Origin: Rubrobacteraceae bacterium
Lineage (GTDB): Bacteria > Actinomycetota > Rubrobacteria > Rubrobacterales > Rubrobacteraceae
Length of the DNA stretch: 31,310 nt
Assembly (NCBI GenBank): GCA_029240775.1
Contig: JARDZQ010000001.1
Coordinates: 1 to 31,310, forward strand
Direction: 5' to 3'
Under the pieces are notes generated by a model. That model did no database searches. It worked only from the letters and a program-made list of their open reading frames with translations, and was not told the origin of the DNA. Shown in pieces: positions 1,601 to 23,665 of this stretch. The stretch's first letter is position 1. Every line of letters begins with the position of its first letter. The position numbers and the translations under genes were made by a program.

Positions 1601-2551
1601 TTGACGATGTTGGATATAGCACCGCCCCGTTTCAGGGTGGAAGAGGAAGACGAGCGACGCGGGACCTTCGTCGCCGAGCCGCTCCCGCGCGGGCTGGGGC
1701 ACACTCTGGGTAACTCCCTGCGTCGCGTGATGCTCTCCGGGCTCCCCGGTGCCGCGGTAACGAAGGTCCGCATAGAGGGTGTCTCCCACGAGTTCTCCAC
1801 GATCCCCGGCGTCAAAGAGGACGTGGTGGACATCATCCTCAACGTGAAGGGTCTGAAGTTCAGGCTCGAGCGCGAGGAGCCCATAGAGCTGGAGATCACC
1901 AAGGACGGCCCCGGCGAGGTGACGGCCGCGGACATAGAGCTGAAGGCCGACGTCGAGGTAGTCGACCCCGAGACCTACATAGCGAGCGTCTCCGAGGGTG
2001 GGCACCTGGACATGCGCCTCACCGTCGAGAACGGCCAGGGCTACGCCCGCGCCGAGCAGAACAAGAGCGACGCCGACCCCATCGGGGTGATAGCCGTAGA
2101 CTCCCTCTTCTCGCCGGTCCAGCGGGTGAACTACTCGGTTACGGAGACGCGGGCCGGAGCGCGCGCCGACCTCGACGCCCTGACCATCGAGGTCTTCACC
2201 GACGGGCGCATCGCTCCGCAGGAGGCCCTGCAGGAGGCCTCGCGGCAGCTCATAGACATCCTCGGGCTCTTCACCGACGGCTACCAGGGCGCCGGCGCAG
2301 CCGAGCAGCGCCAGCGCGGCGGCAGGCCTGTCATCACCGACGAGCGCCCGGTCGAGGACCTAGAGCTCACGGTCCGCTCCTACAACTGCCTCAAGCGCGA
2401 GGGGATCGACACCATCGGCCAGCTCGCGACGATGAGCGAGGAGGAGCTCATGAACATCCGCAACCTCGGGATGAAGAGCGTGGACGAGATCCGCTCGAAG
2501 CTCCTCGAGTACGGCTACGACCTTGCGAGCGAGGGCAATGAGGCACGCTAG
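1601..2551 (+). CDS. rpoA: RNA polymerase alpha subunit (start is TTG 1601 or ATG 1607)
   Basis: EPLPRGLGHTLGNSLRRVMLS, HEFSTIPGVKEDV, alpha-CTD LELTVRSYNCLKREGI..RNLGMKS. Confidence 0.97.
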   Translation: MTMLDIAPPRFRVEEEDERRGTFVAEPLPRGLGHTLGNSLRRVMLSGLPGAAVTKVRIEGVSHEFSTIPGVKEDVVDIILNVKGLKFRLEREEPIELEITKDGPGEVTAADIELKADVEVVDPETYIASVSEGGHLDMRLTVENGQGYARAEQNKSDADPIGVIAVDSLFSPVQRVNYSVTETRAGARADLDALTIEVFTDGRIAPQEALQEASRQLIDILGLFTDGYQGAGAAEQRQRGGRPVITDERPVEDLELTVRSYNCLKREGIDTIGQLATMSEEELMNIRNLGMKSVDEIRSKLLEYGYDLASEGNEAR

Positions 2552-2903
2552 GAGGGGCCGCAAACTGGGCCGCGAAGCGCAGCACCGCAAGGCGATGCTC
2601 GGCACGATGGCGGGACAGCTTTTCGTCCACGGCCGCATAAAGACCACGGCTCCGAAGGCGAAGGAGCTGCGCGGCGTCGTAGACCGGCTCATAAACACGG
2701 CCAAGAAGGACGACCTGTCTGCGCGCAGGCAGGCGGTGAAGGTCTTGAAAGACAAGACCGTGGTCCGGCGGCTCTTCGAGGACGTGGCCCCCGGGCTCGA
2801 CGACCGCAACTCGGGCTACACCCGCATCCTCAAGCTGGGACCCCGGCTCGGAGACGGCGCCGAGACGGTCTACCTGGAGCTGGTCAACCACACGGTTGAG
2901 TAA
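2538..2903 (+). CDS. rplQ: 50S ribosomal protein L17 (start moved to ATG 2538, overlapping the rpoA end)
   Basis: MRHARRGRKLGR, GRIKTTAPKAKELR, GYTRILKLGPRLGDGA. Confidence 0.96.
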   Translation: MRHARRGRKLGREAQHRKAMLGTMAGQLFVHGRIKTTAPKAKELRGVVDRLINTAKKDDLSARRQAVKVLKDKTVVRRLFEDVAPGLDDRNSGYTRILKLGPRLGDGAETVYLELVNHTVE

Positions 2904-2912
2904 GCGCCCGGC

Positions 2913-3770
2913 GTGAATAACCGCAACCACGAGGGGTCCCGCCACGGCGGGCCCCCCGTCGTCTCCTGCGAGAACGTCTCTTTCTCCTACCTCGACTCCG
3001 GGAGGCCTGCGCTCGGCGAAATCTCTTTGGAGGTCCGCGCCGGGGAGTACGTCGGCGTCGTTGGTCCGAACGGAGGAGGGAAATCCACTCTCCTGCGCCT
3101 CATGAACGGTCTCCTGCGCGCCGACTCCGGCGACGTGCGCGTAGCGGGCTTCGACCCGGCGGCGGAACCGTTCGAGGTCCGCAAGAGGGTCGGGATGCTC
3201 TTCCAGAACCCGGAGAACGGGCTCGTCGCGCCCTTCGTCGAGGACGACATCGCCTTCGGGCTCGAGAACGTGGGTGTCTCCCGCGAAGAGATGCGCGAGC
3301 GGGTCCGGAAGGCCGTCCGGGCCGTCGGCCTGGATGGCTACGAGCAGCGGGAGCCCCACACCCTCTCCGGCGGCGAGAAACAGCGAGTCGCGCTGGCCGG
3401 TCTCCTCGCCCTCGACCCTGAGGTCCTCCTCCTCGACGAGCCAACCTCGATGCTCGACGCCGCCGGGCGAAGGGGGGTCCTCGAGAGGCTCGAGGCCTTG
3501 CGGGGGGCGAGGACCGTAGTCCATGTCACCCACCACCTCGACGAGCTGCTCGACGCCGACCGTGTGCTGGTGCTGGGCGCCGGAAGGCTAGTCGCCGACG
3601 TGAGCCCGGAGCGTCTGGTCTCCGACCCGGATCTCCTGCGGGACAATCGCCTCGTACTCCCCACCGCCCTGCGGCTCGCAGCGGAGCTCGGACTCGGACC
3701 AGCGAAGCTCCGGACGCCGGAGGATCTCGCGGAGGCGATCGTGGAGAAGAGCGGGGCGCGAGCAAGGTGA
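2913..3770 (+). CDS. ecfA1: Energy-coupling factor transporter ATPase A1
   Basis: Walker A GPNGGGKST, Q-loop LFQNPE, signature LSGGEKQRVALAG, Walker B LLLDEPT; position after rplQ. Confidence 0.88.
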   Translation: MNNRNHEGSRHGGPPVVSCENVSFSYLDSGRPALGEISLEVRAGEYVGVVGPNGGGKSTLLRLMNGLLRADSGDVRVAGFDPAAEPFEVRKRVGMLFQNPENGLVAPFVEDDIAFGLENVGVSREEMRERVRKAVRAVGLDGYEQREPHTLSGGEKQRVALAGLLALDPEVLLLDEPTSMLDAAGRRGVLERLEALRGARTVVHVTHHLDELLDADRVLVLGAGRLVADVSPERLVSDPDLLRDNRLVLPTALRLAAELGLGPAKLRTPEDLAEAIVEKSGARAR

Positions 3771-12926: not shown

Positions 12927-13842
12927 ATGGGGGTCAAGGTAGACATCAGGGGCCCGGTCGGGCGGCGCATCCCCGAGGTCGTGGAGTTCGTACTGCGGTG
13001 CGAGGAGGCCGGGTTCCATGGCGTCGGGGTACACGACCACCACAGCGGCACAGACGTCTACGTCACCCTGGCGCTTGCGGCTTCCCGCACCAGCGATCTC
13101 ACGCTCTATCCGGCCACCTCCAACACCATCACCCGCTAGTGCTCGCCAACTCGCTCGAAGAAGGGCCCCCGGCAGGACCTTCCTGACCCTCGCGCCGGGG
13201 TTCCTCTCGGTGGAGTCCGCCGGGCGGCGCAGGGCTTCGCTCGAGAGCCTGTGCGATGACGTCGTCGCGATACGCCGACTGCTGGCGGGGGAGGCGGTAC
13301 CCTCCGGCGAGACGAGCGTGCGCCTGCGCAACCACCCCGACGGGCGGTTGCCGGTCTTGCTGACCGCGTCGGGTCCGCGCCTGCTCGAGCTGGCCGGCGA
13401 GGTCGCTGACGGGGCCCTGATGCTCGTGGGGTTGCACCCGGATTCCGTCGCAGCGGCCAGGGAGCACCTCAGGATAGGGGCGCACAGGGCCGTCGGCGAA
13501 GCAGAGGCGGTGGGGGAGTGGCCGCCGCGGTGGTTCCGACCAGACCAGCCGTGGCTCGAGTATCCGAGCCGGTCGAACCTCCGCTGGCTCAGGGAGGCCG
13601 GGCTACGACTGCCCGAGAGCCCGGAGCACATAGCGGATGACCTCGCCGAAGGCATCTGCGACGCATTCGGCCTCTTCGGCGGGGCCGAGCACTGCGCGGA
13701 GCGTTTGATCCGGGCGCACGAGGAGGCCGGTATCGACCACGCCTTCCTCTTTCCGGCTCACACCTTCGAGACCGGTTACGAGATGCCGCGGGCTGAGGTA
13801 GAGGCTTTCGGGCAGGTGATCCGACCCCGCCTCGAGGCCTGA
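12927..13842 (+). pseudogene. LLM-class flavin-dependent oxidoreductase, frameshifted
   Basis: The 5' part (EEAGFHGVGVHDHH..LALAASRTSDLTL) stops at TAG 13137-13139. HPLVLANSLEE follows in a second frame, and APGRTFL..ASGPRLLELAGEVADG..RPRLEA* in a third. Confidence 0.8.
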
Positions 13843-13894
13843 TCGCTATCCCGTCCCTTCTCTCGGGTATACTCGTTTTCGTCCTCGTCACGCC

Positions 13895-13912
13895 GCGGTC
13901 TATCTAGACCGC
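13895..13912. promoter_or_regulatory. Perfect palindrome GCGGTCTA-TC-TAGACCGC (operator-like)
   Basis: 8-bp arms with a 2-nt spacer and no U-tract, upstream of the plsY-like gene. Confidence 0.45.
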
Positions 13913-13952
13913 CGCGCGCCTGCGGAGTTCGGCCAAAGTTCCCCCGTTCCGC

Positions 13953-13958
13953 TATACT
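13953..13958 (+). promoter_or_regulatory. Candidate -10 (TATACT) of a near-leaderless promoter for the lipid operon
   Basis: Nine bases separate the hexamer from ATG 13968 and there is no SD. A second TATACT lies at 13868-13873. Confidence 0.5.
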
Positions 13959-13967
13959 TTCTCCGCC

Positions 13968-14573
13968 ATGTTAGGGGTTCTCCTGGTCTTGTGCGGGTAC
14001 CTGCTGGGCTCCGTGCCCACCGGACTTCTGGTGGGACGGGCCTTTGGCGTGGACGTGCTCGAGGTCGGCAGCGGGAACATCGGGATGGCCAACGTGCTGC
14101 GGGCGGCGGGCAAGTGGCCGGCCGCGCTGACCATGCTCGGGGACATGCTCAAGGGTTTCGTGCCCGTCGTGCTCGCGCGGGCGATCACCGACAACGGGTG
14201 GATCATAGCCGCCGTGGCGATGGCCGCCGTGATCGGCGCGTGCTGGTCGGTGTTCTTGAGATTCAGGGGGGGCAAGGCCGTGGCTACGGGGGCCGGGACG
14301 ACTATAGGGCTCGCTCTGCCCCTCGGGCTTGCGCTCTTCGCGCTGTGGTGGATCGTGGCGCTCACCACCCGCTACACTTCGCTGGCGGCGATCGTGCTGA
14401 TGATCGTGACGCCGTTCGCGTTCCTGGCCACCGGCCAGCCGCTCCCCTACGTGGTCTACACGGTCGCCGGCGGCCTGCTGGTCTTGTGGCGGCACCGGGA
14501 GAACGCGCGCGCGCTGCTCGCGGGCAGGGAGCGGAAGTTCGGCGAGAGGGTGAGGAAGAAGCGTGCTCGCTGA
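13968..14573 (+). CDS. plsY: PlsY-family glycerol-3-phosphate acyltransferase-like membrane protein (divergent)
   Basis: YLLGSVPTG, GSGNIGMANVLR, DMLKG, FRGGKAVAT, RYTSLA, RHRENARALLAGRE. Confidence 0.85.
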   Translation: MLGVLLVLCGYLLGSVPTGLLVGRAFGVDVLEVGSGNIGMANVLRAAGKWPAALTMLGDMLKGFVPVVLARAITDNGWIIAAVAMAAVIGACWSVFLRFRGGKAVATGAGTTIGLALPLGLALFALWWIVALTTRYTSLAAIVLMIVTPFAFLATGQPLPYVVYTVAGGLLVLWRHRENARALLAGRERKFGERVRKKRAR

Positions 14574-16821
14574 GGCCTACCGCGGGAAGTCGGTGCTGCT
14601 CACTGGAGGGACCGGCTTCCTCGGGACGGCGCTCGTCGAGAAGATCCTGCGCAGCCTCCCCGAGCTGGGTCGGCTTTATCTCCTGATCCGGGCCTCCCGT
14701 GAGAAGAGCGCCGCCTCTCGTTTCGAAAAGGACGTGCTGGACTCCGCCGCCTTTCGCGGGCTGCGCGAGGAGAGGGGCGACTCTTTTCGCGATTACGTTG
14801 CGAGCAAGGTGTGCGTGCTCGAAGGCGACGTGCACGCCCCCTCGCTGGGTCTCGGCGAAGAGGACCTCGCCGAGCTCTCGCGCGAGGTGGACGTGGTGAT
14901 CCACTCCGCCGCCTCGGTCGTCTTCGACGCTCCCTTAGACGCCGCGGTCGAGTCGAACGTCCACGGCACTCTAGGTCTGCTCCGGCTCGCGCGCGGTTGG
15001 GAGAAGAGGCCGCTCTTATTGCACGTCTCGACAGCCTACGTCGCCGGCATGCGCGAGGGCTTCGCGCCCGAGAAGCCGCCCGGGAGCCGGTCGCCGAACG
15101 GTACGCCGCTCGACCCCTACGAGGAGGTGTCGCATCTAGAGGGCGTGGTGCGGGAGGTAGAGGAGGCCTCGAGGGAGCGCGCGCTGCTCAGGCGATTCGA
15201 GACGGAGGCCAGGAGAGAGCTCGGGATGGTAGGCGAGGACGAGGAGGTCGCCGAGAGGACGGACCAGCTCAGGCGGGCCTGGGTGCGCGAGCGCCTCGTC
15301 GAGCGCGGTACCGAGCGCGCCCGCGCTCTGGGCTGGCACGACGTCTACACCTTCACCAAGTCGCTAGCGGAACGGATGGTCGTCAGGGAGCGGGGCGAGG
15401 TGCCGCTCATCATCCTCAGGCCGGCGATCATAGAGAGCAGCCAGCACGAGCCTTATCCGGGTTGGATCCAGGGCTCCAGGATGGCAGACCCGATCATCAT
15501 GGCGTTCGCGAAGGGGATCCTGCGCGAGTTCCCCGGCGACCCCGAGAGCCTGGTAGATATCGTACCCGTAGACCACGTCGTGAACGGAACTTTGGCGGCC
15601 GCCGCGAGGCGTCCCGAGGATCCTGAAGTCTTCCAGGTCGCCTCGGGGGACCACAACCCCTTGCGCTACCGCCAGCTCTACGAGCATGTCAGGGAGTACT
15701 TCCTCGAGAACCCGCTGCGCGACTCGGGCGGACGACCGCTGCAGCCCGCGGAGTGGAGCTTCCCCGGCCGCCGGGCCGTGGAGCGCCGGCTCAAGGCGGA
15801 GCTCGCTGGCCTCGAGGTCGCCGGAGTGGTGGTCTCCAGGTTGCCAGAAGGGCACATCACCGCCGATCTGCGTGGCAGGATCGCGCGCGCCGAGAAGCGT
15901 GCCAGGATGAGCCTCTACTACAGCCGCATCTACGGCCCTTACTCCTCGGGGACCGCGACCTTCTCGACGGCCCGGACCCTGGAGCTCTTCGACTCTCTCC
16001 CGCGAGAGGACAGGGAGGAGTTCCCCTTCGACATCGCCGACCTGGACTGGAGAGAGTGGCTGCAGGGGACCCACCTGCCGGCGCTCACGACGCGCCCGAG
16101 CCGCAAGAAGCGCAGGAAGGCGGCCGAGGAGAGGCCCAGGGAGGTGGCGGCGATCTTCGACGTGGACGGCACGCTCGTCGGCTCGAACGTGGTCTCGTAT
16201 TACGCCTGGCTTAAGATGCGCGAGATGCCAGCGGCGACCCGCCCGCTCTGGGCCGCCGGGTTTTTGGCCAAGATCCCCTTCTACTGGGCCCTGGACAAGG
16301 TGAGCCGGGCCCACTTCAACCGCGCGTTCTACAAGAACTACGCTGGCTGGGAGCCCTCCCGCGCCAGACACCTCGGCCAGGAGAGCTTCCCCGGCTTCAC
16401 CCTGAGCCGCATCTACCCCGACGCCCTGGAATGCTTGCGCGAGCACAAGCGGATGGGCCACCGCGTAGTCCTGCTCTCGGGCGCTTTAGACTTCCTCCTC
16501 GACCCGTTCAAGGACCTCGCCGACGATGTGCTCTCCGCCTCGCTCGCCGAGGAGGACGGCGTCTACACCGGAGAGCTCTCCGGGGCGCCGGTAGCGGGCG
16601 AGGCCCGCGCTAGGATGCTCGCCTCCTTCGCCCGCAAGCGGGGCGTGGACCTCGGCCGCTCCTACGCCTACGCCGACTCCATCTCCGACCTGCCGATGCT
16701 CGAGGCCGTCGGCAACCCGGTCGCCGTCAACCCCGACCGCAGGCTCGCCGCGGCCGCGAAGGAGCGCGGCTGGCAGCTGCGGCGCTGGAGCAAGAACGGC
16801 TCCTCCCCAGACAAGGTCTAG
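14563..16821 (+). CDS. Fatty acyl-CoA reductase (extended SDR plus sterile-like domain) fused to a C-terminal HAD-IB phosphatase
   Basis: FAR part: TGGTGFLG, HSAASVVF, HVSTAYV, YTFTK, RPAIIES, FPFD..LDW. HAD part from about 16141: IFDVDGTL, LSGA, AYADSISDLPML, AVNPD. Confidence 0.88.
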   Translation: MLAEAYRGKSVLLTGGTGFLGTALVEKILRSLPELGRLYLLIRASREKSAASRFEKDVLDSAAFRGLREERGDSFRDYVASKVCVLEGDVHAPSLGLGEEDLAELSREVDVVIHSAASVVFDAPLDAAVESNVHGTLGLLRLARGWEKRPLLLHVSTAYVAGMREGFAPEKPPGSRSPNGTPLDPYEEVSHLEGVVREVEEASRERALLRRFETEARRELGMVGEDEEVAERTDQLRRAWVRERLVERGTERARALGWHDVYTFTKSLAERMVVRERGEVPLIILRPAIIESSQHEPYPGWIQGSRMADPIIMAFAKGILREFPGDPESLVDIVPVDHVVNGTLAAAARRPEDPEVFQVASGDHNPLRYRQLYEHVREYFLENPLRDSGGRPLQPAEWSFPGRRAVERRLKAELAGLEVAGVVVSRLPEGHITADLRGRIARAEKRARMSLYYSRIYGPYSSGTATFSTARTLELFDSLPREDREEFPFDIADLDWREWLQGTHLPALTTRPSRKKRRKAAEERPREVAAIFDVDGTLVGSNVVSYYAWLKMREMPAATRPLWAAGFLAKIPFYWALDKVSRAHFNRAFYKNYAGWEPSRARHLGQESFPGFTLSRIYPDALECLREHKRMGHRVVLLSGALDFLLDPFKDLADDVLSASLAEEDGVYTGELSGAPVAGEARARMLASFARKRGVDLGRSYAYADSISDLPMLEAVGNPVAVNPDRRLAAAAKERGWQLRRWSKNGSSPDKV

Positions 16822-16822
16822 G

Positions 16823-18058
16823 GTGCTCGCCCTCCGCTACAGGAAGTCTGTCCCACGCTACCTGCTCATGCGCGCCGGCGCAAAGCGCATAAAGAGTCTG
16901 GAGACGAGCCGCTTCTCCCCCTTGAAGCTCGAAGAGATCCCCGACCCTACCCTCCCGACCTCCGAGTGGGTGCGGGTCAGACCCCTCCTCTCGGGTATCT
17001 GCGGCTCTGACCTTGGCACGCTCTCCTCCGGGAACTCGCCTTACTTCTCCCCGATCACCTCCCCACCCTTCGTCCTCGGCCACGAGGTCGTGGGCGTCGT
17101 TGCCGAAGACAATGGGGCTTTTCACGCGGGCGAGCGGGTCGTCCTCGAACCGGCCCTCGGCTGCGCTGTGCGCAGCATAGAGCCGCCGTGCCGTATGTGC
17201 GCCTCGGGCCGCTACGCCCTGTGCTTGAACGTCGCAAAAGGTGACATCTCGCCTGGCATCCAGACCGGCTTCTGCCGCGACACCGGCGGGGGCTGGTGCG
17301 AAGGTACGCTCGTCGCCCACCCCGCCCAGCTTCACAGGGTCCCGGACGACGTGCCGGACGAGGCCGCTGTCGCGGTGGAGCCGCTCGCCTGCGCGGTCCA
17401 CGCGGCACTGAAGGCAGACCCGGGCCCCGACGAGACGGCGCTCGTGGTCGGGGCCGGCTCCGTAGGCCTCTTCGTCGTCGCGGCGCTGGAGAACCTGACC
17501 CGCGCCGGACGGATAATCTGCGTCGCCAAGCACGATCGGCAGAGGAAGGAGGCCCTCCGCCTCGGCGCCGACGAGGTGGTGCACCCGAAAGACACCTACA
17601 CCACGCTCCCCGCCATGCTCGGCACCGAGGCGTACAGGCCGGAGATAGGCAAGCCCGTCGTCATGGGCGGCGCGGACAAGACCTTCGAGTGCGTCGGAGC
17701 CGCGGGAACGATGGAGGACGCCGTGAGGCTCACCAGGCCCGACGGCCAGGTCGTCCTCGTGGGGATGCCCTCCACGCGCAGCTGCCTCGACCTCACGGCG
17801 TTGTGGCACAAGGAGGTGACCCTCGCAGGCTCCTACGCCTACGGGATAGAGGAGTACGGGGGAGAGGAGATCAAAAGTTTCCAGCTCGCGCTCCGCCTCG
17901 CCCCGGCCGTGGACCTCGCGTCTCTGGTCGGCCCGCGCTTCCGCCTCACAGAGTACCGGGAGGCCATCGCCGCCGCCCGCGCCGCCGGCAGAGAGGGCCA
18001 CGTGAAGGTGGTCTTCGACCATAGAGCCGTTAGCTATGGGCCATCAGCGGTCAGCTAG
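16823..18058 (+). CDS. Zn-dependent medium-chain alcohol/polyol dehydrogenase (MDR family)
   Basis: SGICGSD, LGHEVVG, structural-Zn cysteines GC..PCRMC..ALC, EPLAC, GAGSVG, FECVG. Confidence 0.9.
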   Translation: MLALRYRKSVPRYLLMRAGAKRIKSLETSRFSPLKLEEIPDPTLPTSEWVRVRPLLSGICGSDLGTLSSGNSPYFSPITSPPFVLGHEVVGVVAEDNGAFHAGERVVLEPALGCAVRSIEPPCRMCASGRYALCLNVAKGDISPGIQTGFCRDTGGGWCEGTLVAHPAQLHRVPDDVPDEAAVAVEPLACAVHAALKADPGPDETALVVGAGSVGLFVVAALENLTRAGRIICVAKHDRQRKEALRLGADEVVHPKDTYTTLPAMLGTEAYRPEIGKPVVMGGADKTFECVGAAGTMEDAVRLTRPDGQVVLVGMPSTRSCLDLTALWHKEVTLAGSYAYGIEEYGGEEIKSFQLALRLAPAVDLASLVGPRFRLTEYREAIAAARAAGREGHVKVVFDHRAVSYGPSAVS

Positions 18059-18187
18059 AATTGCTGCCAACGTGCTGGTGGTGAGACCACGAAGCTATTC
18101 GGCGGTAGCTACTAGCACGGAGGCGAGGTCTGAGTAAGAAAGTTACGGCACAGAGAGCAGATAGCTGACGGCCCATAGCTGACAGCT
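18024..18187. repeat. Heptamer-based imperfect inverted repeat flanking an interior of about 100 bp
   Basis: Left arm 18025-18048 AGCCGTTAGCTATGGGCCATCAGC vs reverse complement of right arm 18164-18187 AGCTGTCAGCTATGGGCCGTCAGC (21/24 identical). Arms are built from 7-mers such as CAGCTAT/ATAGCTG. Confidence 0.8.
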
Positions 18188-18207
18188 TTGCGACCGAAGG
18201 GAGCAAT

Positions 18208-19785
18208 ATGAGCCGTCCCGGTTTCACGACCATCCTGGACAAGAGCAGCCCTCCGATGATGTTTAACGCGGGGGACGGGTTCCACTACGAGAAGCTCCCC
18301 GAGGGGACGCGGGTAGTCTATCCTCCGGGCTCCCTCACGCCGCTCGCGGATCCCGGCGTCGCCATCGAGCGGGCGCTGCTCGAACCTTTTGCGATGGAGC
18401 CGCTGCACGAGCTATTGCGTCCCGGAATGAAGCTCACCATCGCCTTCGATGACCTCTCGATCCCGCTTCCACCCATGCAGGCCCCGGACAACCGCCAGCT
18501 CATAGTGGAGAAGGTGCTGGAGAAGGCATACGCGAAAGGCGTCGAGGACATCCACCTTATAGCCGCCCTTGGGTTGCACCGCAGGATGACGAGGGCGGAG
18601 ATCCACCACATGCTCGGGAAGAGTATCGTCAATCGCTTCTACCCTGAGAGGCTCTACAACTACGACGCAGAGGACGAGGAGAACCACGTAACGATAGGCG
18701 AGACCGAGCGCGGCGAGGAGGTGCGGGTAAGCCGCCGCGTCGCCGAGAGCGACCTGCTGGTCTATATAAACGTCAACTACATCCCGATGGACGGCGGCCA
18801 CAAGTCCGTCCACACCGGCCTCTCGCCCTACTCCTCCATCCGCCACCACCACAACCCGGAGACGCTGGAGCACACGCGCTCTTTGATGGACCCGCCCAAC
18901 TCCGCGATGCACGGCTCCATAGACAGGATGGGCCGCATCTTCGACGAGAACGTCAAGGTCTTCCACATAGAGACGACCCTGAACAACGCCTCTTACCCGC
19001 ATGTCTTCGACTTCATGGCGAAGCCCGAGCACGAGTGGAACCCGGTTACCCGCGCGAACTTCCTCGCGAACCACGGGGCGACGCGCTCGATGCCGCGCCG
19101 GGCCGCCCGCAAGGTCTTCCAGAGCATCAAGGCCCCGCACAAGATGACGAGCGTGCAGGCCGGCGCTACCGACCCCGTCCACGCCGAGACTCTCAAGCAC
19201 ACCTACCGCCAGCAGCTCGTGCCCGTCGAGGGGCAGTCCGACGTGGTGTTGCTCGGCGTCCCGTACCTGGGGCCCTACAACGTCAACTCCGTAATGAACC
19301 CGCTGCTGGTCATGAACATGCTGCTCGGCTACCTCTTCAATTTGTACAGGGGCAAGCCGCTCGTGCGCCGGGGCGGGGTCCTCATCGGGACCCACCCCAT
19401 GCCCGAGGAGTTCCACGAGATCCACCATCCATCGTACATAGACCTCTGGAACGAGGTGCTTCCTGAGACCACCGACCTGTACGAGATCGCCGGCCGCTAT
19501 GAGGAGAGGTACGCCTACGACCCCTGGTACCGCACCCTGTACCGTAACTCCTACGCCTACCACGGCGTCCACCCCTTCACCGTGCTCTACTGGGCGGCCC
19601 ACGCCATGGAGCACCTCGGGGACGTAATCGTGGTCGGCGGCGACCCGAAGACCACCAAGCGCCTCGGCTTCAAGCGCTCGGATACGGTGGCCGAGGCGCT
19701 CGAGATGGCGCAGGACACCGTCGGCCCGAGCCCGAGCACCACCTACATGCACATACCGCCGCTCTTTATCTGCGAGGTGAGCTAG
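18208..19785 (+). CDS. Lactate racemase (LarA/DUF2088) domain protein, 525 aa
   Basis: AAGGGAG SD; PLHELLRPGMKLTIAFDD, IAALGLHRRMT, NYDAED, VSRRVAESDL, GGHKSV.TG, SIRHHH. Confidence 0.75.
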   Translation: MSRPGFTTILDKSSPPMMFNAGDGFHYEKLPEGTRVVYPPGSLTPLADPGVAIERALLEPFAMEPLHELLRPGMKLTIAFDDLSIPLPPMQAPDNRQLIVEKVLEKAYAKGVEDIHLIAALGLHRRMTRAEIHHMLGKSIVNRFYPERLYNYDAEDEENHVTIGETERGEEVRVSRRVAESDLLVYINVNYIPMDGGHKSVHTGLSPYSSIRHHHNPETLEHTRSLMDPPNSAMHGSIDRMGRIFDENVKVFHIETTLNNASYPHVFDFMAKPEHEWNPVTRANFLANHGATRSMPRRAARKVFQSIKAPHKMTSVQAGATDPVHAETLKHTYRQQLVPVEGQSDVVLLGVPYLGPYNVNSVMNPLLVMNMLLGYLFNLYRGKPLVRRGGVLIGTHPMPEEFHEIHHPSYIDLWNEVLPETTDLYEIAGRYEERYAYDPWYRTLYRNSYAYHGVHPFTVLYWAAHAMEHLGDVIVVGGDPKTTKRLGFKRSDTVAEALEMAQDTVGPSPSTTYMHIPPLFICEVS

Positions 19786-19861
19786 CGCAGAGGGGTCTAT
19801 CCGCCGGTATGGTGGCAGGGTTCCGCATGCGCGTTCGCTCTCCGGATGGTAGAAACTTTCC

Positions 19862-21193
19862 GTGCGCGTAAAGCAGGAGCGGCCCGTAGAGAAGATCGTA
19901 CGCCCCTTCCAGGAGTTCGCCGACAGGCAGTCCTCAGGTGGCGTACTGCTCATAGTCGCCGCCGTGATCGCCCTCGTGTGGGCCAACTCGCCCTGGGGCG
20001 AGAGCTACGCCTCACTGTGGGGCTCGGAGTTGGCGGTCGGGCTCGGCGAGTTCTCCCTCTCCAAGGACCTGACGCTCTGGATCAACGACGGTCTCATGGC
20101 CGTTTTCTTCCTGGTCGTCGGGCTGGAGATCAAACGCGAGATACTGGTGGGCGAGCTCTCCTCCCCGAAGAACGCGGCGCTGCCGATCGCCGCTGCCATA
20201 GGCGGGGCGGCAATCCCGGCTGTGATCTACATAGCCCTCAACGCGGGGACGGAGGGGGCCGCAGGCTGGGGGGTGCCGATGGCGACGGATATAGCTTTTG
20301 CCCTCGGTGTCCTCGCCTTGCTCGGAGAGAGGGTGCCCGTAGCCCTCAAGGTGTTCCTCACGGCGCTCGCCATCGTGGACGACATAGTGGCCGTGCTGGT
20401 GATCGCCTTCTTCTACACCTCGGAGATCTCCTGGAGCGCCCTCGCAGCCGGTGCGGGGTTCCTGGCGGCGCTTATCGTGGCAAACCTGATCGGGGTCGGC
20501 AGGACGCTGATGTACGTGGTGCTGGGGATGGGCCTCTGGCTGGCTCTCTTGCACTCAGGGGTCCACGCTACCATAGCCGGCGTTCTCCTGGCGTTCACGG
20601 TGCCGGCCACTTCGTTTATCAACCCGGGCGAGTTCCTGGAGCGCGGCAGGTACGTCCTGGACCGCTTCGAGCAGGCGGGGGAGAAGGGGGAGGATGTGCT
20701 CACGAACGAGGAGCGCCAGGCAGCCTTGCACGCGCTCAACAGGGCGACATACAAGCTCGAGCCCCCCTTGCACGAGCTGGAACACGCCCTTCACCCCTGG
20801 GTCGTCTTCGCGATCATGCCGCTCTTTGCCCTGGCCAATGCCGGCGTGCCGCTCGGAGGGGGCATCGGAGAGGCTCTCGCCAGCCCCGTGGCCCTCGGCA
20901 TAGTGGGCGGGCTTGTGATCGGCAAGCAGCTCGGCGTCACCCTGTTCGCGTGGCTGGCGGTGAGGAGCGGTCTCTCGGAGCTGCCCGAAGGCGTCTCCTG
21001 GCGTCACGTCTACGGGGCAGCCTGGCTGGCGGGGATCGGGTTCACCATGTCCCTCTTTATCGCCGACCTGGCCTTCGTGGGCACCGATCTCCTGGAGACG
21101 GCCAAGCTCGGGATACTGGCGGCCTCGCTGATCTCCGGCGTCGTAGGCTGGACGATACTCAGGTCGATCGCTCTCCGCGAAGGCGGCGGGTGA
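19862..21193 (+). CDS. nhaA: Na+/H+ antiporter NhaA
   Basis: INDGLMAVFFLVVGLEIKRE, GELSS, GWGVPMATDIAFALG, FLTALAIVDD, GVHATIAG, GIGFTMSLFI. Confidence 0.95.
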   Translation: MRVKQERPVEKIVRPFQEFADRQSSGGVLLIVAAVIALVWANSPWGESYASLWGSELAVGLGEFSLSKDLTLWINDGLMAVFFLVVGLEIKREILVGELSSPKNAALPIAAAIGGAAIPAVIYIALNAGTEGAAGWGVPMATDIAFALGVLALLGERVPVALKVFLTALAIVDDIVAVLVIAFFYTSEISWSALAAGAGFLAALIVANLIGVGRTLMYVVLGMGLWLALLHSGVHATIAGVLLAFTVPATSFINPGEFLERGRYVLDRFEQAGEKGEDVLTNEERQAALHALNRATYKLEPPLHELEHALHPWVVFAIMPLFALANAGVPLGGGIGEALASPVALGIVGGLVIGKQLGVTLFAWLAVRSGLSELPEGVSWRHVYGAAWLAGIGFTMSLFIADLAFVGTDLLETAKLGILAASLISGVVGWTILRSIALREGGG

Positions 21194-21239
21194 GCTGCGT
21201 GCTGCCCAATGCTTGCAGTTTGCGAGAACGCGCCTACCT

Positions 21240-22472
21240 CTAGTAGGGTGGGTGAATAGTGCGACTTCTGGCCTCCCGCACCACGCATTCCAGTTCGTTG
21301 TTCAGCGCCTCTAGGTCTGTTTCGTTTCGCAGCCTCGCCGAGAAGCGTTCAAGCGTCTTTCTTGCATCGTACTTGCGGCGCTAGAAGTGTCGGTCCACCA
21401 GGCCTTGCACGCTGTGGCGCAGCGGGTTGAACAGGGCGGCGATCACCAAAGTGGAGGCGACGACGGCCAGTGTGGACTCCTGGCCGCTCAGGGCGCGCAC
21501 GATGGCCTGCAGGCCGACAACACCCACGACGTAGACCAGGACCAGCGTCACGGTGAGGGGACCGTAGACCAGCGCGCGGTTGATGATGAGGTCTATGGCG
21601 TAGAGGCGGTATCTCAACACGGCGATGCCCACGGCGATAGGAACCGTTGCGAAGCTCAGCAGCGCCGCGTGCACCAAGAGGTCCAACCACCACCGCGAGC
21701 CCGCAGTCAACCATGCCTCCGAAGGGAAGAGCAACGAGGCGACCATGGCGACCAGGTAAATCAGGCCCACCAAGGAGGCCGCGAAGGCTATCCACTTGAT
21801 CTGCTGGCGCTCTTCACCCCTCGAACCCCGGAAGCGCAACACCAAGCTTGTCGCCGAGGCGAGCATGCACAGGGGCAGCAGCGGCAGAACGGCGAACCCT
21901 GCTTGCTCTACCCAGGATTGTCCCTCCAGCCCAAAGGGGTTGCGTGCTCCCCCAAGGTGCTCCAACGGTTCGGGGCCGAGCACGACACACACGCTGAGCA
22001 CCACGATCACCGCCCCTGAGAGCCACGCCAGAGGCCGCCACCTCCGAGACGGTAGCCTCCCGTCGGGGAACAGCAGGAGCAGGTAGGTTCCCAGTATTCC
22101 CACGGCGGGCACCCACAGCCAGTGGTTTAGTCCGGCTACAACTATCGGGAAGGGGACCGAACCGGGACTGGCCATACCGTAGACGCCGTAGTAGTCGCTC
22201 ATGCCGAGGAACGTCCACAGCAGGCCGTCCGCCAGCAAGATCCATCCTGTCGGGTTGTCGGGACGCTTGGAGGCGATCAGGGCTCCCACTACGGGGAAGG
22301 CCAAAAACAGCGTTCCTCCCAACATACTACCCACGGAGAAGTCGACATCCCAGCCGCTTGGCACATGCGCCGAACGGGCGAGGACGAACAGGACGACGTT
22401 GGCGAGGAACATGGCTAGCGAGAGACCGGCGAGCGACCAAGCGAGCCACCAAGAAGCGGCGCGGGTGCTCAT
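21240..22472 (-). pseudogene. Multi-pass membrane protein resembling the sensor region of actinobacterial histidine kinases; premature TAG at 21383-21381
   Basis: ATG 22472 gives 363 aa to the TAG. Past the stop the frame reads RRKYDARKTLERFSARLRNETDLEALNNELECVVRE, matching the neighbouring paralog, and ends at TAG 21242-21240. Confidence 0.7.
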
Positions 22473-23665
22473 CCTGTTGGCTCCCTGCTTCGATCTACTC
22501 CGGAAGGCCGCAACCACAGGCCGACATGGGCGGGCTGCATAGTCTCCCTGACTATCCCTACCAGGTCGTCATCCAGCGCTTGCAGGTCCGTCTGGTCGCG
22601 TAACTTGGCAGAGAAGGTCTCCAGGGTCCTTCTCGCGTCATACTTCCTGCGGTAGAAGCGCCTGTCTATGAACGACTGGATGCGCCTCCTCAAGGGTGTG
22701 AACAGCGCAGCTATAACTAGGGTTGAGACCACGACTGCAAGGGTGGACCGCTCTCCGGTGAGAACGACGAACATTCTCTGCAACAGCACAATGCCGCCGA
22801 AGTAGAGTGCTACTAGCATTGCCGTGAGGGAGCCGTAGACGAGGGTGCGGTTGATGATCACGTCTATGTCGTAGAGGCGGTGCCTCAGGATGGCCACGCC
22901 CACGGCCGCGTAGAGGAGCATGTTGGTCGAGGCGTCGATCAGGTTCAACAACGCCCCACCGAGCAGCCGCTCGAAGCCTAGCAGTAATGCAAAGATGTAG
23001 AAGGTAGCCAGGACGGTGGCCATCGCGAACCACTTCAGCTGCTGACGCTCTACCCCGCTCGCCCTGCGATAGCGCGTCACGAGCGAGATTGCCGAAAGGA
23101 TAATTGCGGAGAAGAGCACGATCACCACCACGAACGTTATCGCGCTGATAATCCCCCCTACTTCGTCCGGACTACCGAACAAGAGGTTGAGGGACACGAG
23201 CACCACCCCGGACACGGCAGCGACCCAGGCCACCGGACGCCACCGGCTCGACGGTAGCCGCCCGGTTGGGAACAGCAGCAGCAGGAAGGGTGCGCAGCTA
23301 AGCGCCAGCGGCCCTCCCGACCCTAGCAGGCGCGAGATCGTCCGGGGGGCCGGGAGCGACCCAGGCTCCACCACCAGCGCGTAGGCGGCGTAGGACTCGC
23401 CGAGTAACTGGAGGGCGAGCCCCAACCCGAAGCCTAGCCACAGCCACCCGTATGGGTTGCGGGGACGGCGCGAGGCGACGAGGCCGCCGAGGACAGGTGC
23501 CCCGATGATGCCCACCAGGGAAACGGCTAGGTCTCGCCACGGCGTCCACCCTCGAGGCAGCGGCGTCGACCAGCCAAGAAGGATCAGCGCCAGCGACAAC
23601 GCCGAGATCGACAAGACCAAGGCGCAAACCACCCACGCCAGCCGGGTCGCGGCGCGGTCGCTCGT
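22469..23665 (-). CDS. Paralogous multi-pass membrane protein; ACG stands where ATG is expected
   Basis: Shared motifs LLLFPxGRLPSxRWRP, ERQQLKW, RLYDIDVIINRTLVYG, FYRRKYDA, ETMQPAHV.LWLR. GAGGAG then 8 nt then ACG AGC GAC CGC mirrors the paralog's ATG AGC ACC CGC. Confidence 0.7.
   Translation of the reverse strand, partial: TSDRAATRLAWVVCALVLSISALSLALILLGWSTPLPRGWTPWRDLAVSLVGIIGAPVLGGLVASRRPRNPYGWLWLGFGLGLALQLLGESYAAYALVVEPGSLPAPRTISRLLGSGGPLALSCAPFLLLLFPTGRLPSSRWRPVAWVAAVSGVVLVSLNLLFGSPDEVGGIISAITFVVVIVLFSAIILSAISLVTRYRRASGVERQQLKWFAMATVLATFYIFALLLGFERLLGGALLNLIDASTNMLLYAAVGVAILRHRLYDIDVIINRTLVYGSLTAMLVALYFGGIVLLQRMFVVLTGERSTLAVVVSTLVIAALFTPLRRRIQSFIDRRFYRRKYDARRTLETFSAKLRDQTDLQALDDDLVGIVRETMQPAHVGLWLRPSGVDRSREPTG

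What the first reader, a model, noticed from the sequence alone, without database searches (positions are those of the whole stretch)
13968..19785. Candidate undescribed lipid pathway: PlsY-like + FAR-HAD fusion + Zn dehydrogenase + LarA-fold protein
Seen: four same-strand genes behind one promoter region. plsY and FAR overlap by 11 nt, FAR and the dehydrogenase are 1 nt apart, and only a small repeat element separates the LarA-like gene. Known: FARs reduce acyl-CoA/ACP to fatty alcohols, PlsY acylates glycerol-3-phosphate, HAD-IB enzymes dephosphorylate, and LarA-family enzymes do nickel-pincer-dependent hydride transfer (racemisation/epimerisation). A FAR domain also drives ether lipid synthesis in myxobacterial ElbD. 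Inference: the operon makes a fatty-alcohol-containing glycerolipid (alkyl ether or similar) with no AGPS or ElbD-type multidomain enzyme in the window. The dehydrogenase and LarA-like protein could do redox or stereo-inversion chemistry on the glycerol or alkyl part. I know of no characterised pathway with this exact set, but cannot exclude overlap with elb accessory genes.
Basis: partly seen in the sequence, partly recalled or inferred. Interest (0 to 1): 0.88.

Follow-up and report, generated by a model that had tools for sequence, protein, structure and literature searches.

The report
Rubrobacter ether-lipid operon with nickel enzyme
These four genes are the Rubrobacteraceae form of the bacterial "elb" ether-lipid gene set, in which the cell's only PlsY acyltransferase sits beside a fatty-acyl reductase-phosphatase fusion, a zinc dehydrogenase and a nickel-cofactor (LarA-family) enzyme that may make the ether bond.

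Summary
plsY (13968-14573), FAR::HAD-IB (14563-16821), a Zn polyol-type dehydrogenase (16823-18058) and a LarA homologue (18208-19785) are real, co-directional and tightly packed.

The set is conserved in essentially all Rubrobacteraceae sampled, including cultured R. radiotolerans. The core FAR-HAD / ZnDH / LarAH plus an acyltransferase is colinear in other Actinomycetota, Dormibacterota, Dehalococcoidia and further MAGs.

In Myxococcota the same LarA family (42-50% identity, same NCBIfam equivalog) lies between a HAD gene and a FAR-ACS-ACP-acyltransferase gene. That is the position of ElbC, the unassigned gene of the elb operon. The cluster is therefore a rearranged elb-type, AGPS-free ether-lipid operon, and Rubrobacterales membranes are reported to be dominated by 1-O-alkyl ether/ester lipids.

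Specific to Rubrobacteraceae, the genome's single housekeeping plsY replaces the PlsC-type acyltransferase. The LarA homologue keeps the nickel-pincer cofactor residues but lacks the second catalytic histidine and the carboxylate-binding arginine, so it is probably not a hydroxyacid racemase.

Its role in ether-bond formation is inference only. This scan found the same cassette before in eight other genomes. A 2023 paper that I could not read reports a putative Rubrobacter ether operon.

The parts
13843..13967 (+). Upstream intergenic region and presumed promoter of the operon
   Evidence: A 125-nt gap lies between the luciferase-like ORF and plsY. The scan found no sigma-70-type consensus. 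Promoter function is inferred only.
13968..14573 (+). plsY, acyl-phosphate:glycerol-3-phosphate acyltransferase (201 aa, membrane protein)
   Evidence: PF02660 scores 163 bits and TIGR00023 161 bits, above the equivalog cut-off of 137. It is the only plsY in G000 and in 4 of 5 complete or near-complete relatives, always directly upstream of FAR-HAD. There are 4 hydrophobic segments.
14563..16092 (+). FAR domain of the fusion protein (residues 1-510): fatty acyl-CoA/ACP reductase
   Evidence: NAD_binding_4 scores 228 bits, with a weak Sterile hit. The best solved relative is 7eoz, a fatty acyl-CoA reductase, at 276 bits over residues 2-510. The GGTGFLG and YTFTK motifs are present.
16147..16821 (+). 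HAD-IB phosphatase domain of the same protein (about residues 529-752), the ElbB equivalent
   Evidence: PF12710 scores 122 bits and TIGR01490 132 bits, above the cut-off of 98. Motif I DVDGT is intact. The separate HAD gene at the ElbB position in Myxococcota hits the same TIGR01490 model at 131.8 bits.
16823..18058 (+). Zn-dependent medium-chain dehydrogenase of the polyol-dehydrogenase type (411 aa)
   Evidence: ADH_N and ADH_zinc_N are present. The best solved relatives are xylitol, sorbitol and L-idonate dehydrogenases. Catalytic Cys/His-Glu/Glu, the four-Cys structural zinc site and GAGSVG are present. It always lies next to FAR-HAD and LarAH outside Myxococcota.
18013..18199 (+). Inserted inverted-repeat hairpin element in the ZnDH-LarAH spacer; it overlaps the last codons of ZnDH
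   Evidence: The arms are 44 nt and 75% complementary. The fold is -97.6 kcal/mol with z -7.2. It is single-copy in the genome and has no Rfam family. It is present in L015 and absent in L068 and L019.
18208..19785 (+). LarA-family nickel-pincer (NPN) enzyme of the ElbC family (525 aa; NCBIfam LarAH14/15/16)
   Evidence: NF052592 scores 853 bits, above the cut-off of 740. It is 48% identical over its full length to the gene between HAD and the ElbD-like gene in a Myxococcota genome. Asp82, His124, Lys199 and His215 are invariant. Asn/Thr stands at the His174-equivalent and a hydrophobic residue at the Arg75-equivalent.

Best explanation
What it is: this is the Rubrobacteraceae version of the elb-type, AGPS-independent ether-lipid pathway. 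It most likely supplies 1-O-alkyl-glycerol-3-phosphate for the mixed ether/ester membrane lipids of this family.

Proposed steps, all inferred from homology and context:
- PlsX/PlsY make 1-acyl-glycerol-3-phosphate.
- The FAR domain reduces acyl-CoA/ACP to fatty alcohol.
- The polyol-type Zn dehydrogenase handles NAD(P)-linked redox at C2 of the glycerol backbone, interconverting acyl/alkyl-G3P and acyl/alkyl-DHAP. It fills the slot held by the SDR ElbE in myxobacteria.
- The LarA-family enzyme (the ElbC equivalent) uses its nickel-pincer cofactor, without net redox, to exchange the sn-1 acyl group for the alkyl group. That is the job done by the flavoenzyme AGPS in animals.
- The HAD-IB domain (the ElbB equivalent) dephosphorylates a lipid phosphate intermediate that I cannot name.
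- PlsC, encoded elsewhere, then acylates sn-2.

Status: gene identities, conservation and the elb correspondence are shown here. The substrate of each enzyme and the ether-forming role of the LarA homologue are inference.
For: 1. Conservation in the family. FAR-HAD is found in 24 of 24 and LarAH in 23 of 24 family genomes sampled. The one miss is a 370-contig assembly whose contig ends after ZnDH. Gene order is kept in about 60 loci. The same order holds in cultured R. radiotolerans RSPS-4: plsY 203 aa, FAR-HAD 752 aa, ZnDH 401 aa, LarAH 526 aa.

2. Conservation across phyla. Every LarAH homologue of at least 53% identity that was retrieved with enough flanking DNA lies in a FAR-HAD / ZnDH / LarAH / PlsC-type acyltransferase cassette. 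This covers Dormibacterota, Baltobacterales, Chloroflexota, Actinoplanes and Dehalococcoidia. Among 16 other families of the same phylum, LarAH occurs in exactly the 3 genomes that have FAR-HAD, and in none of the other 13.

3. Correspondence with elb. In Myxococcota the order is HAD, then a Lar_N protein, then a FAR-AMP-binding-PP-binding-acyltransferase protein, then an SDR. This matches the published elbB-C-D-E order (PMC9131029). The Lar_N protein is 48% identical to the window protein and belongs to the same NCBIfam equivalog. Disruption of elbD and elbE lowers ether lipids (PMC9131029).

4. Cofactor. larB, larC and larE are in G000 and sit beside the cassette in Actinoplanes. In two complete Rubrobacteraceae genomes the cassette protein is the only Lar_N protein, although larC is present. 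Of the Myxococcota genomes with the ElbC-like gene, 47 of 48 have larC, against 55 of 103 without it. The NPN/Ni residues are invariant.

5. Chemotype. Rubrobacterales are reported to have about 46% ether core lipids (PMC10821996; titles in PMC11181052 and PMC11150832).

6. Fusions. FAR::HAD here, FAR::AT in Dehalococcoidia and FAR-ACS-ACP-AT in ElbD link these activities.
Against: - No experiment ties any of these four genes to ether lipids in Rubrobacter.
- The review I read reports no elbC mutant. The elbB phenotype was attributed to polar effects.
- NCBI names the LarA family a 'hydroxyacid isomerase'. A protein called LarAH15 from Phytophthora epimerises D-mannonate and D-gluconate (PMC11770544). 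I could not establish whether that protein belongs to this sequence family.
- The role of the HAD domain is unexplained.
- The Zn dehydrogenase has no elb homologue and could simply be an aldehyde reductase.
- Ether lipids are not documented for most other carriers of the cassette (Dormibacterota, Actinoplanes, Dehalococcoidia).
- Co-transcription is not shown.
Confidence: 0.72

Rival explanations
1. The cluster makes ether lipids, but the LarA homologue is a C2 epimerase of the glycerol backbone. It would invert a lyso-lipid or glycerol phosphate between the G3P and G1P configurations rather than form the ether bond.
For: LarA enzymes are racemases or epimerases at a hydroxyl-bearing carbon (PMC7583248, PMC11770544). 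The stereochemistry of Rubrobacter ether lipids is reported as undetermined (PMC10821996). The neighbouring polyol-type dehydrogenase also points to chemistry at a C2 hydroxyl.
Against: The second catalytic histidine needed for two-base inversion is replaced by Asn or Thr in all 17 family members examined, from four or more phyla. The published single-His relatives showed no lactate racemase activity (PMC12611868). M. xanthus ether phospholipids are drawn as sn-glycero-3-phospho lipids (PMC9131029).
Confidence: 0.08
2. The cassette makes a different product, in which the LarA homologue and the Zn dehydrogenase act on a soluble hydroxy or sugar acid. Candidates are free fatty alcohols or wax esters, long-chain diol lipids, or a sugar-acid or polyol-derived head group.
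For: NCBIfam names the family a hydroxyacid isomerase. The nearest dehydrogenase models are L-idonate, xylitol and sorbitol dehydrogenases. LarAH15 is a gluconate 2-epimerase (PMC11770544). The nearest solved LarA-like structures were linked to carbohydrate genes (PMC12611868).
Against: All dehydrogenase matches fall far below the equivalog cut-offs. The residues after the His174-equivalent are Tyr-Ile, not the Glu-Val signature given for gluconate epimerases (PMC11770544). The Arg75-equivalent that binds the carboxylate is hydrophobic. Frankia LarAH14 was inactive on all hydroxyacids tested (PMC7583248). No sugar transporter or kinase is conserved with the cassette, whereas an acyltransferase always is.
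Confidence: 0.12
3. The adjacency is historical. plsY and FAR-HAD are lipid genes, while the dehydrogenase and the LarA homologue are an unrelated two-gene unit that happens to lie downstream.
For: The ZnDH-LarAH spacer varies from about 25 nt to 3 kb, takes up insertions, and carries a hairpin element here. In one genus (G010) LarAH lies on another contig. GC content drops from 18 kb onward.
Against: The genes are colinear across at least five phyla, with perfect presence/absence agreement in the phylum sample. In Myxococcota the LarA homologue is flanked on both sides by elb genes.
Confidence: 0.03

Closest known systems
Myxococcus xanthus elbA-E ether-lipid operon (Lorenzen et al. 2014, as reviewed in PMC9131029)
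   Same: It has a FAR-type reductase, a glycerolipid acyltransferase, a HAD-IB phosphatase (ElbB) and the same LarA-family protein at the ElbC position. That protein is 42-50% identical and in the same NCBIfam equivalog. An NAD(P) oxidoreductase is present and there is no AGPS in the cluster.
   Different: There are no acyl-activating (AMP-binding) or carrier-protein domains. FAR is fused to HAD instead of to ACS-ACP-AT. The acyltransferase is the membrane protein PlsY, which uses an acyl-phosphate donor, not an AGPAT/PlsC-type domain. The oxidoreductase is a Zn medium-chain dehydrogenase, not the SDR ElbE/ElbA.
FAR-HAD / ZnDH / LarAH / PlsC-type acyltransferase cassette of other Actinomycetota, Dormibacterota and Chloroflexota
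   Same: It has the same three core genes in the same order at 37-56% identity.
   Different: Rubrobacteraceae lack the downstream PlsC-type acyltransferase. Instead they place the genome's single plsY upstream, translationally coupled to FAR-HAD.
Eukaryotic and myxobacterial FAR1 / GNPAT / AGPS / acyl-alkyl-DHAP reductase pathway
   Same: The logic may be the same: a fatty alcohol from a FAR, an acylated three-carbon phosphate backbone, exchange of acyl for alkyl, and redox at C2.
   Different: No AGPS flavoenzyme gene is in the window. I did not search the genome for AGPS. The exchange catalyst proposed here is a nickel-pincer enzyme, and the acyl acceptor is presumably G3P (PlsY) rather than DHAP.
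LarA lactate racemase and characterised LarA homologues (PDB 5HUQ, 9EIA; single-His LarA-like 9Q2U/9Q3J, PMC12611868)
   Same: It has the Lar_N fold and keeps the cofactor residues: the ribose-binding Asp, the first catalytic His, the Lys that links NPN and the His that ligates Ni.
   Different: It is about 100 residues longer. Asn/Thr stands in place of the second catalytic His, and a hydrophobic residue in place of the Arg that binds the substrate carboxylate. A family-specific insertion carries invariant Asp94 and Arg96. The genomic context is lipid, not acid or sugar metabolism.

Membership tests
elb-type (AGPS-independent) bacterial ether-lipid gene cluster | FAR-type reductase clustered with a glycerolipid acyltransferase | tested here: met
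   The FAR domain is translationally coupled to plsY. The acyltransferase differs in type from ElbD's AGPAT-like domain.
elb-type (AGPS-independent) bacterial ether-lipid gene cluster | HAD-IB phosphatase (ElbB) in the cluster | tested here: met
   The window HAD domain and the gene at the ElbB position in Myxococcota both exceed the TIGR01490 cut-off, at 132.4 and 131.8 bits.
elb-type (AGPS-independent) bacterial ether-lipid gene cluster | ElbC-family protein in the cluster | tested here: met
   The window protein is 48% identical over its full length to the gene between HAD and the ElbD-like gene. Both exceed the NF052592 cut-off. The identity of that Myxococcota operon with elb rests on matching the published architecture (PMC9131029), not on named M. 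xanthus sequences.
elb-type (AGPS-independent) bacterial ether-lipid gene cluster | Multidomain ElbD with acyl-activating and carrier-protein domains | tested here: not met
   No AMP-binding or PP-binding domain is found in the four proteins. I therefore file this as a variant, not as a member with the canonical architecture.
elb-type (AGPS-independent) bacterial ether-lipid gene cluster | Required for alkyl ether lipid production | not testable with these tools
   The only support is correlative: ether lipids are reported in Rubrobacterales (PMC10821996), and the cluster is present in R. radiotolerans.
LarA superfamily (NPN-dependent enzymes) | Lar_N domain with the NPN-binding residues (Asp, Lys for the thioamide link, His for Ni) and the first catalytic His | tested here: met
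   Lar_N scores 131 bits. Asp82, His124, Lys199 and His215 align to the LarASp/LarAIp residues and are invariant in 17 sequences.
LarA superfamily (NPN-dependent enzymes) | Second catalytic His (His174 of LarA) for two-base racemisation | tested here: not met
   This position holds Asn or Thr in all 17 family members.
LarA superfamily (NPN-dependent enzymes) | Arg75-type residue that binds the 2-hydroxyacid carboxylate | tested here: not met
   Ile/Leu/Val/Met stands at the aligned position. The alignment there carries an insertion, so this result is moderately secure.
LarA superfamily (NPN-dependent enzymes) | NPN biosynthesis genes larB, larC and larE in the genome | tested here: met
   larC scores 400 bits. 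larB-like and larE-like genes are 43% and 41% identical to the Actinoplanes genes that neighbour the cassette.
D-gluconate 2-epimerase (GntE) group of LarA homologues | Glu-Val after the second catalytic His, and Ala/His at the W358/T359 equivalents (PMC11770544) | tested here: not met
   There is no catalytic His at this position, and the following residues are Tyr-Ile. The C-terminal positions were not mapped.
PlsY (acyl-phosphate:G3P acyltransferase) | Score above the equivalog cut-off, a multi-pass membrane protein, and a PlsX partner in the genome | tested here: met
   TIGR00023 scores 161 bits against a cut-off of 137. There are four hydrophobic segments. One plsX is found per genome.
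Fatty acyl-CoA/ACP reductase (FAR) | NAD_binding_4 Rossmann domain with GxxGxxG and YxxxK, plus the C-terminal Sterile domain | tested here: met
   The Sterile domain scores 31 bits, below its 35.4 cut-off. However, the full-length alignment to FAR 7eoz covers residues 2-510.
Zn-dependent polyol dehydrogenases (MDR) | Catalytic Zn ligands, the structural Zn Cys4 site and the GxGxxG NAD(P) site | tested here: met
   No substrate-specific equivalog cut-off is reached.
AGPS-dependent ether-lipid pathway | AGPS flavoenzyme (FAD_binding_4 plus FAD-oxidase_C) near the FAR and acyltransferase | tested here: not met
   None is found among the ORFs of the window or in the 8-kb flanks of the related loci examined. 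A genome-wide search for AGPS was not done.

The most novel reading that the evidence does not exclude
The LarA-family protein (the ElbC family) is the missing ether-bond-forming enzyme of aerobic bacteria. It would be a nickel-pincer enzyme that, without net redox, exchanges the sn-1 acyl group of acyl-G3P or acyl-DHAP for a fatty alcohol. Two routes are conceivable: transient C2 oxidation that activates C1, or covalent capture of the enolate on the cofactor, as the flavin of AGPS does. This would be the first NPN enzyme outside hydroxyacid isomerisation and the first role for nickel in membrane-lipid synthesis.
Probability: 0.3. Interest if true: 0.9.

Novelty: new variant of a known kind. 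Interest (0 to 1): 0.64.

Why it matters
How aerobic bacteria make alkyl ether lipids without AGPS has been open since the elb operon was described in 2014. The question bears on the "lipid divide" and on the sources of bacterial ether-lipid biomarkers.

Rubrobacteraceae may offer the simplest natural test bed:
- Four discrete genes with no megasynthase.
- A single plsY wired into the cluster.
- Cultured strains whose membranes are reported to be mostly ether/ester lipids.

The comparative data make ElbC an NPN-type enzyme, and its cofactor genes co-occur with it. That yields cheap, sharp tests, such as nickel dependence of ether-lipid content, larC or elbC knock-outs, and reconstitution.

The paper search returned no paper holding both 'ElbC' and 'racemase', and one unrelated paper holding 'nickel-pincer' and 'ether lipid'. 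The library is incomplete.

Tried and rejected
- Key paper not available. Sinninghe Damste et al. 2023 (Syst Appl Microbiol 46:126404) is not held. From memory, its abstract mentions a putative Rubrobacter operon for 1-O-alkyl glycerol phosphate that resembles an operon of other aerobic bacteria. I could not verify that it is this gene set.
- HAD::LarAH fusions in Myxococcota. The open frames of 750-800 aa suggested fusions. I rejected this: the long frame is upstream read-through over a HAD gene in another frame.
- Loci L085 and L086 (Deltaproteobacteria and Myxococcales MAGs) have HAD plus FAR but no Lar_N gene and are not elb-type.
- Rfam gave no match in the whole window.
- The sigma-70 promoter scan found none, and terminator-like sites were not above the shuffle expectation.
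- The spacer element as a dispersed repeat or MITE family: rejected for this genome, where it is single-copy.
- Expression. Soil metatranscriptome contigs match pieces of all four genes, some at 100% identity. No piece from a definite RNA run bridges a gene junction with at least 31 nt on each side, and DNA carry-over cannot be excluded. I therefore make no claim of co-transcription.
- The second Lar_N protein of G000 (contig C312) was too divergent to serve as a canonical LarA reference.
- Whether the Phytophthora 'LarAH15' gluconate epimerase belongs to NF052592 could not be settled. The top 120 of 6038 homologues are all bacterial or metagenomic.
- I did not run structure or complex predictions. 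The fold is already clear from sequence matches to solved LarA-like structures, and I make no binding claim.
Full report
**Organism and observation.** The window is contig C144 of a 77%-complete soil MAG of the family Rubrobacteraceae. Near-identical DNA occurs in soil metagenomes from 14 studies.
- plsY, 13968-14573
- a 752-aa FAR::HAD fusion, 14563-16821, overlapping plsY by 11 nt
- a 411-aa Zn dehydrogenase, 16823-18058, after a 1-nt gap
- a 525-aa LarA homologue, 18208-19785, after a 149-nt spacer

**Protein identities.**
- PlsY passes the equivalog cut-off of TIGR00023.
- Residues 2-510 of the fusion align end to end with a solved fatty acyl-CoA reductase (7eoz, 276 bits). They carry GGTGFLG and YTFTK.
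- The C-terminal domain of the fusion is a HAD-IB hydrolase (TIGR01490, above cut-off) with an intact DVDGT motif.
- The dehydrogenase is a medium-chain Zn enzyme. Its nearest solved relatives are xylitol, sorbitol and L-idonate dehydrogenases. Both zinc sites are present, and no substrate-specific model is reached.
- The LarA homologue exceeds the cut-off of NCBIfam NF052592, 'LarAH14/15/16'.

**Conservation within the family.**
- FAR-HAD was found in 24 of 24 and the LarA homologue in 23 of 24 Rubrobacteraceae genomes sampled. The single miss is a fragmented assembly whose contig ends after the dehydrogenase.
- These tallies include the unpublished genome G002 as one positive. The out-of-family comparison below includes the unpublished genome G025 as one negative. 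No conclusion depends on either.
- About 60 public Rubrobacteraceae loci keep the order plsY / FAR-HAD / ZnDH / LarAH, usually downstream of trpE. This includes R. taiwanensis.
- In the cultured R. radiotolerans RSPS-4 chromosome the four genes are packed with gaps of 1, 7 and 75 nt.
- The ZnDH-LarAH spacer is the only loose joint. It ranges from about 25 nt to 3 kb. In one genus the LarA homologue lies on another contig.

**plsY is the housekeeping gene.** Complete relatives have one plsY, and it is this one. They also have one plsX, with plsC encoded elsewhere. The operon therefore contains the cell's housekeeping glycerol-3-phosphate acyltransferase, not a paralogue.

**Conservation beyond the family.**
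- Every homologue of the LarA protein at 53-56% identity that came with enough flanking DNA lies in the order FAR-HAD, ZnDH, LarAH, PlsC-type acyltransferase. The carriers are Dormibacterota, Baltobacterales, Chloroflexota, Actinoplanes, other Actinomycetota, and MAGs labelled Eisenbacteria, Bacillota and Verrucomicrobiia.
- In two Dehalococcoidia the reductase is fused to the acyltransferase and the HAD is a separate gene. A DagK-like lipid kinase follows.
- In Actinoplanes the cofactor genes larB, larC and larE sit directly beside the cassette.
- Among 16 other families of the window's phylum, the LarA homologue occurs in exactly the three genomes that carry full-length FAR-HAD. Those three have the PlsC-type acyltransferase.
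- Replacement of that acyltransferase by plsY is therefore specific to Rubrobacteraceae. G000 has no cassette-type acyltransferase elsewhere.

**Relation to the elb operon.**
- The review PMC9131029 describes the Myxococcus operon as follows: ElbA and ElbE are NAD-dependent epimerase-family proteins, ElbB is a HAD hydrolase, ElbC is of unknown function, and ElbD is a FAR-ACS-ACP-acyltransferase. Disruption of elbD and elbE lowers ether lipids.
- Earlier notes of this scan claimed that the LarA-like protein equals ElbC. I tested that claim.
- In a sample of 151 Myxococcota genomes, 48 carry a full-length homologue (E 1e-132 to 1e-169).
- In three of the four loci that I cut out, the gene lies between a HAD gene and a 1540-1740-aa ORF with an N-terminal FAR and a C-terminal acyltransferase. 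In the fourth (L174) the FAR match lies about 6.5 kb from the LarA homologue and no acyltransferase match was found.
- In L175 that large protein has the domain order NAD_binding_4, AMP-binding, PP-binding, Acyltransferase, and it is followed by an SDR.
- The LarA homologue at that position is 48% identical to the window protein over 524 residues. It exceeds the same NCBIfam cut-off.
- The correspondence is therefore: HAD domain to ElbB, LarAH to ElbC, and FAR plus an acyltransferase to parts of ElbD. The Zn dehydrogenase has no elb homologue and may fill the oxidoreductase slot of ElbE. That last point is inference.

**What the LarA homologue looks like.**
- Alignments to solved LarA-like proteins, whose residues are assigned in PMC12611868, give these equivalences. 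Asp82 matches the ribose-binding Asp. His124 matches the first catalytic His. Lys199 matches the lysine that links the nickel-pincer nucleotide covalently. His215 matches the Ni ligand. All four are invariant in 17 sequences from Rubrobacteraceae to Myxococcota.
- The second catalytic histidine (His174 of LarA) aligns to position 190, which is Asn or Thr in every member.
- The arginine that binds the substrate carboxylate aligns to a hydrophobic residue, next to a family-specific insertion with invariant Asp94 and Arg96.
- The residues after position 190 (Tyr-Ile) do not fit the Glu-Val signature given for gluconate epimerases (PMC11770544).
- A Frankia protein of 'group 14' was inactive on all hydroxyacids tested (PMC7583248).

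**The cofactor can be made.**
- G000 has larC and larB- and larE-like genes.
- In two complete Rubrobacteraceae genomes the cassette protein is the only Lar_N protein, although larC is present.
- In Myxococcota, 47 of 48 genomes with the ElbC-like gene have larC, against 55 of 103 without it. Relatedness inflates such contrasts.
- I read this as a cofactor-binding enzyme that is not a classical two-base hydroxyacid racemase.

**Phenotype link.** Rubrobacterales are reported to contain about 46% ether-linked core lipids, with undetermined stereochemistry (PMC10821996, citing Sinninghe Damste et al. 2023). [quoted passage not shown] The paper itself is not held. From memory, its abstract mentions a putative operon for 1-O-alkyl glycerol phosphate that resembles an operon of other aerobic bacteria. 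This is probably the same gene set, but I could not check.

**Mechanism.** The genes, their conservation, the elb correspondence, the cofactor residues and the cofactor genes are shown. The following steps are inferred:
- PlsX and PlsY give 1-acyl-G3P.
- The FAR gives fatty alcohol.
- The polyol-type dehydrogenase works at C2 of the backbone (acyl/alkyl-G3P versus acyl/alkyl-DHAP). Less likely, it reduces fatty aldehyde.
- The LarA homologue exchanges acyl for alkyl at sn-1 without net redox, in place of AGPS.
- The HAD domain removes a phosphate from an intermediate that I cannot name.

The chemical rationale comes from general knowledge and was not tested. A ketone at C2 activates C1, and the NPN pyridinium is an electrophile comparable to the flavin used by AGPS. 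I put the operon-level reading at about 0.7 and the ether-forming role of the LarA homologue at about 0.3.

**Side observations and weak evidence.**
- The spacer before the LarA gene carries a 187-nt inverted-repeat hairpin (-97.6 kcal/mol, z -7.2). It is single-copy in the genome, shared with one same-genus relative and absent from two others. It has no Rfam match.
- Soil metatranscriptome contigs match pieces of all four genes, but none from a definite RNA run bridges a junction.

**Verdict.** This is a real, strongly conserved operon. It is a new architectural variant (plsY-linked, without a megasynthase) of the known but mechanistically unsolved elb-type ether-lipid system. This scan noted the same cassette before in eight other genomes. 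What this window adds is the link to a family whose ether-lipid chemotype is published, and the plsY wiring.

Noticed in passing
window 18013-18199: A 187-nt inverted-repeat element sits between the dehydrogenase and the LarA gene and overlaps the dehydrogenase stop codon. It folds into a very stable hairpin (-97.6 kcal/mol, z -7.2). It is single-copy in the genome, present in one same-genus relative (L015) and absent from two others. It has no Rfam family. It could be a MITE-like insertion or a transcript-processing or attenuation structure.
   Followed up: partly
window 19846-23632: Three long ORFs have no Pfam hit even at E 0.01: 19846-21243 (+), 21381-22517 (-) and 22469-23632 (-). They lie in a stretch of lower GC (0.61-0.66, against about 0.69 upstream). 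The first has a match (86%) only in the closest relative among the loci searched. This looks like a variable region downstream of the operon.
   Followed up: partly
L072 5045-7855 (Actinoplanes sp.): larC-, larB- and larE-like genes lie immediately upstream of the FAR-HAD / ZnDH / LarAH / acyltransferase cassette. larC and larB are on the opposite strand; larE is on the same strand. This ties synthesis of the nickel-pincer cofactor physically to the lipid cassette.
   Followed up: yes
L078 7211-14966 and L081 (Dehalococcoidia MAGs): This cassette variant has FAR fused to a PlsC-type acyltransferase (828 aa) and a separate HAD gene. A nucleotidyltransferase lies upstream and a DagK/YegS-like lipid kinase downstream.
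   Followed up: partly
G018:C1 840172-850235: One Rubrobacteraceae genome has three extra, weaker plsY-like matches clustered within 10 kb, in addition to the operon copy.
   Followed up: no
G000:C312 about 2126-3577 (-): The same genome has a second, divergent Lar_N-type ORF (484-aa open frame; Lar_N E 8.5e-10). Its function is unknown.
   Followed up: no
G010 (C11 versus C28): In one Rubrobacteraceae genus, plsY / FAR-HAD and the LarA homologue lie on different contigs, and no dehydrogenase follows FAR-HAD. The operon is therefore split there.
   Followed up: partly
window 13018-13842: The luciferase-like monooxygenase ORF upstream of plsY matches only the middle of its Pfam model (positions 96-213 of 314). 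It has a match in only a few of the relatives searched. It may be a truncated remnant.
   Followed up: no
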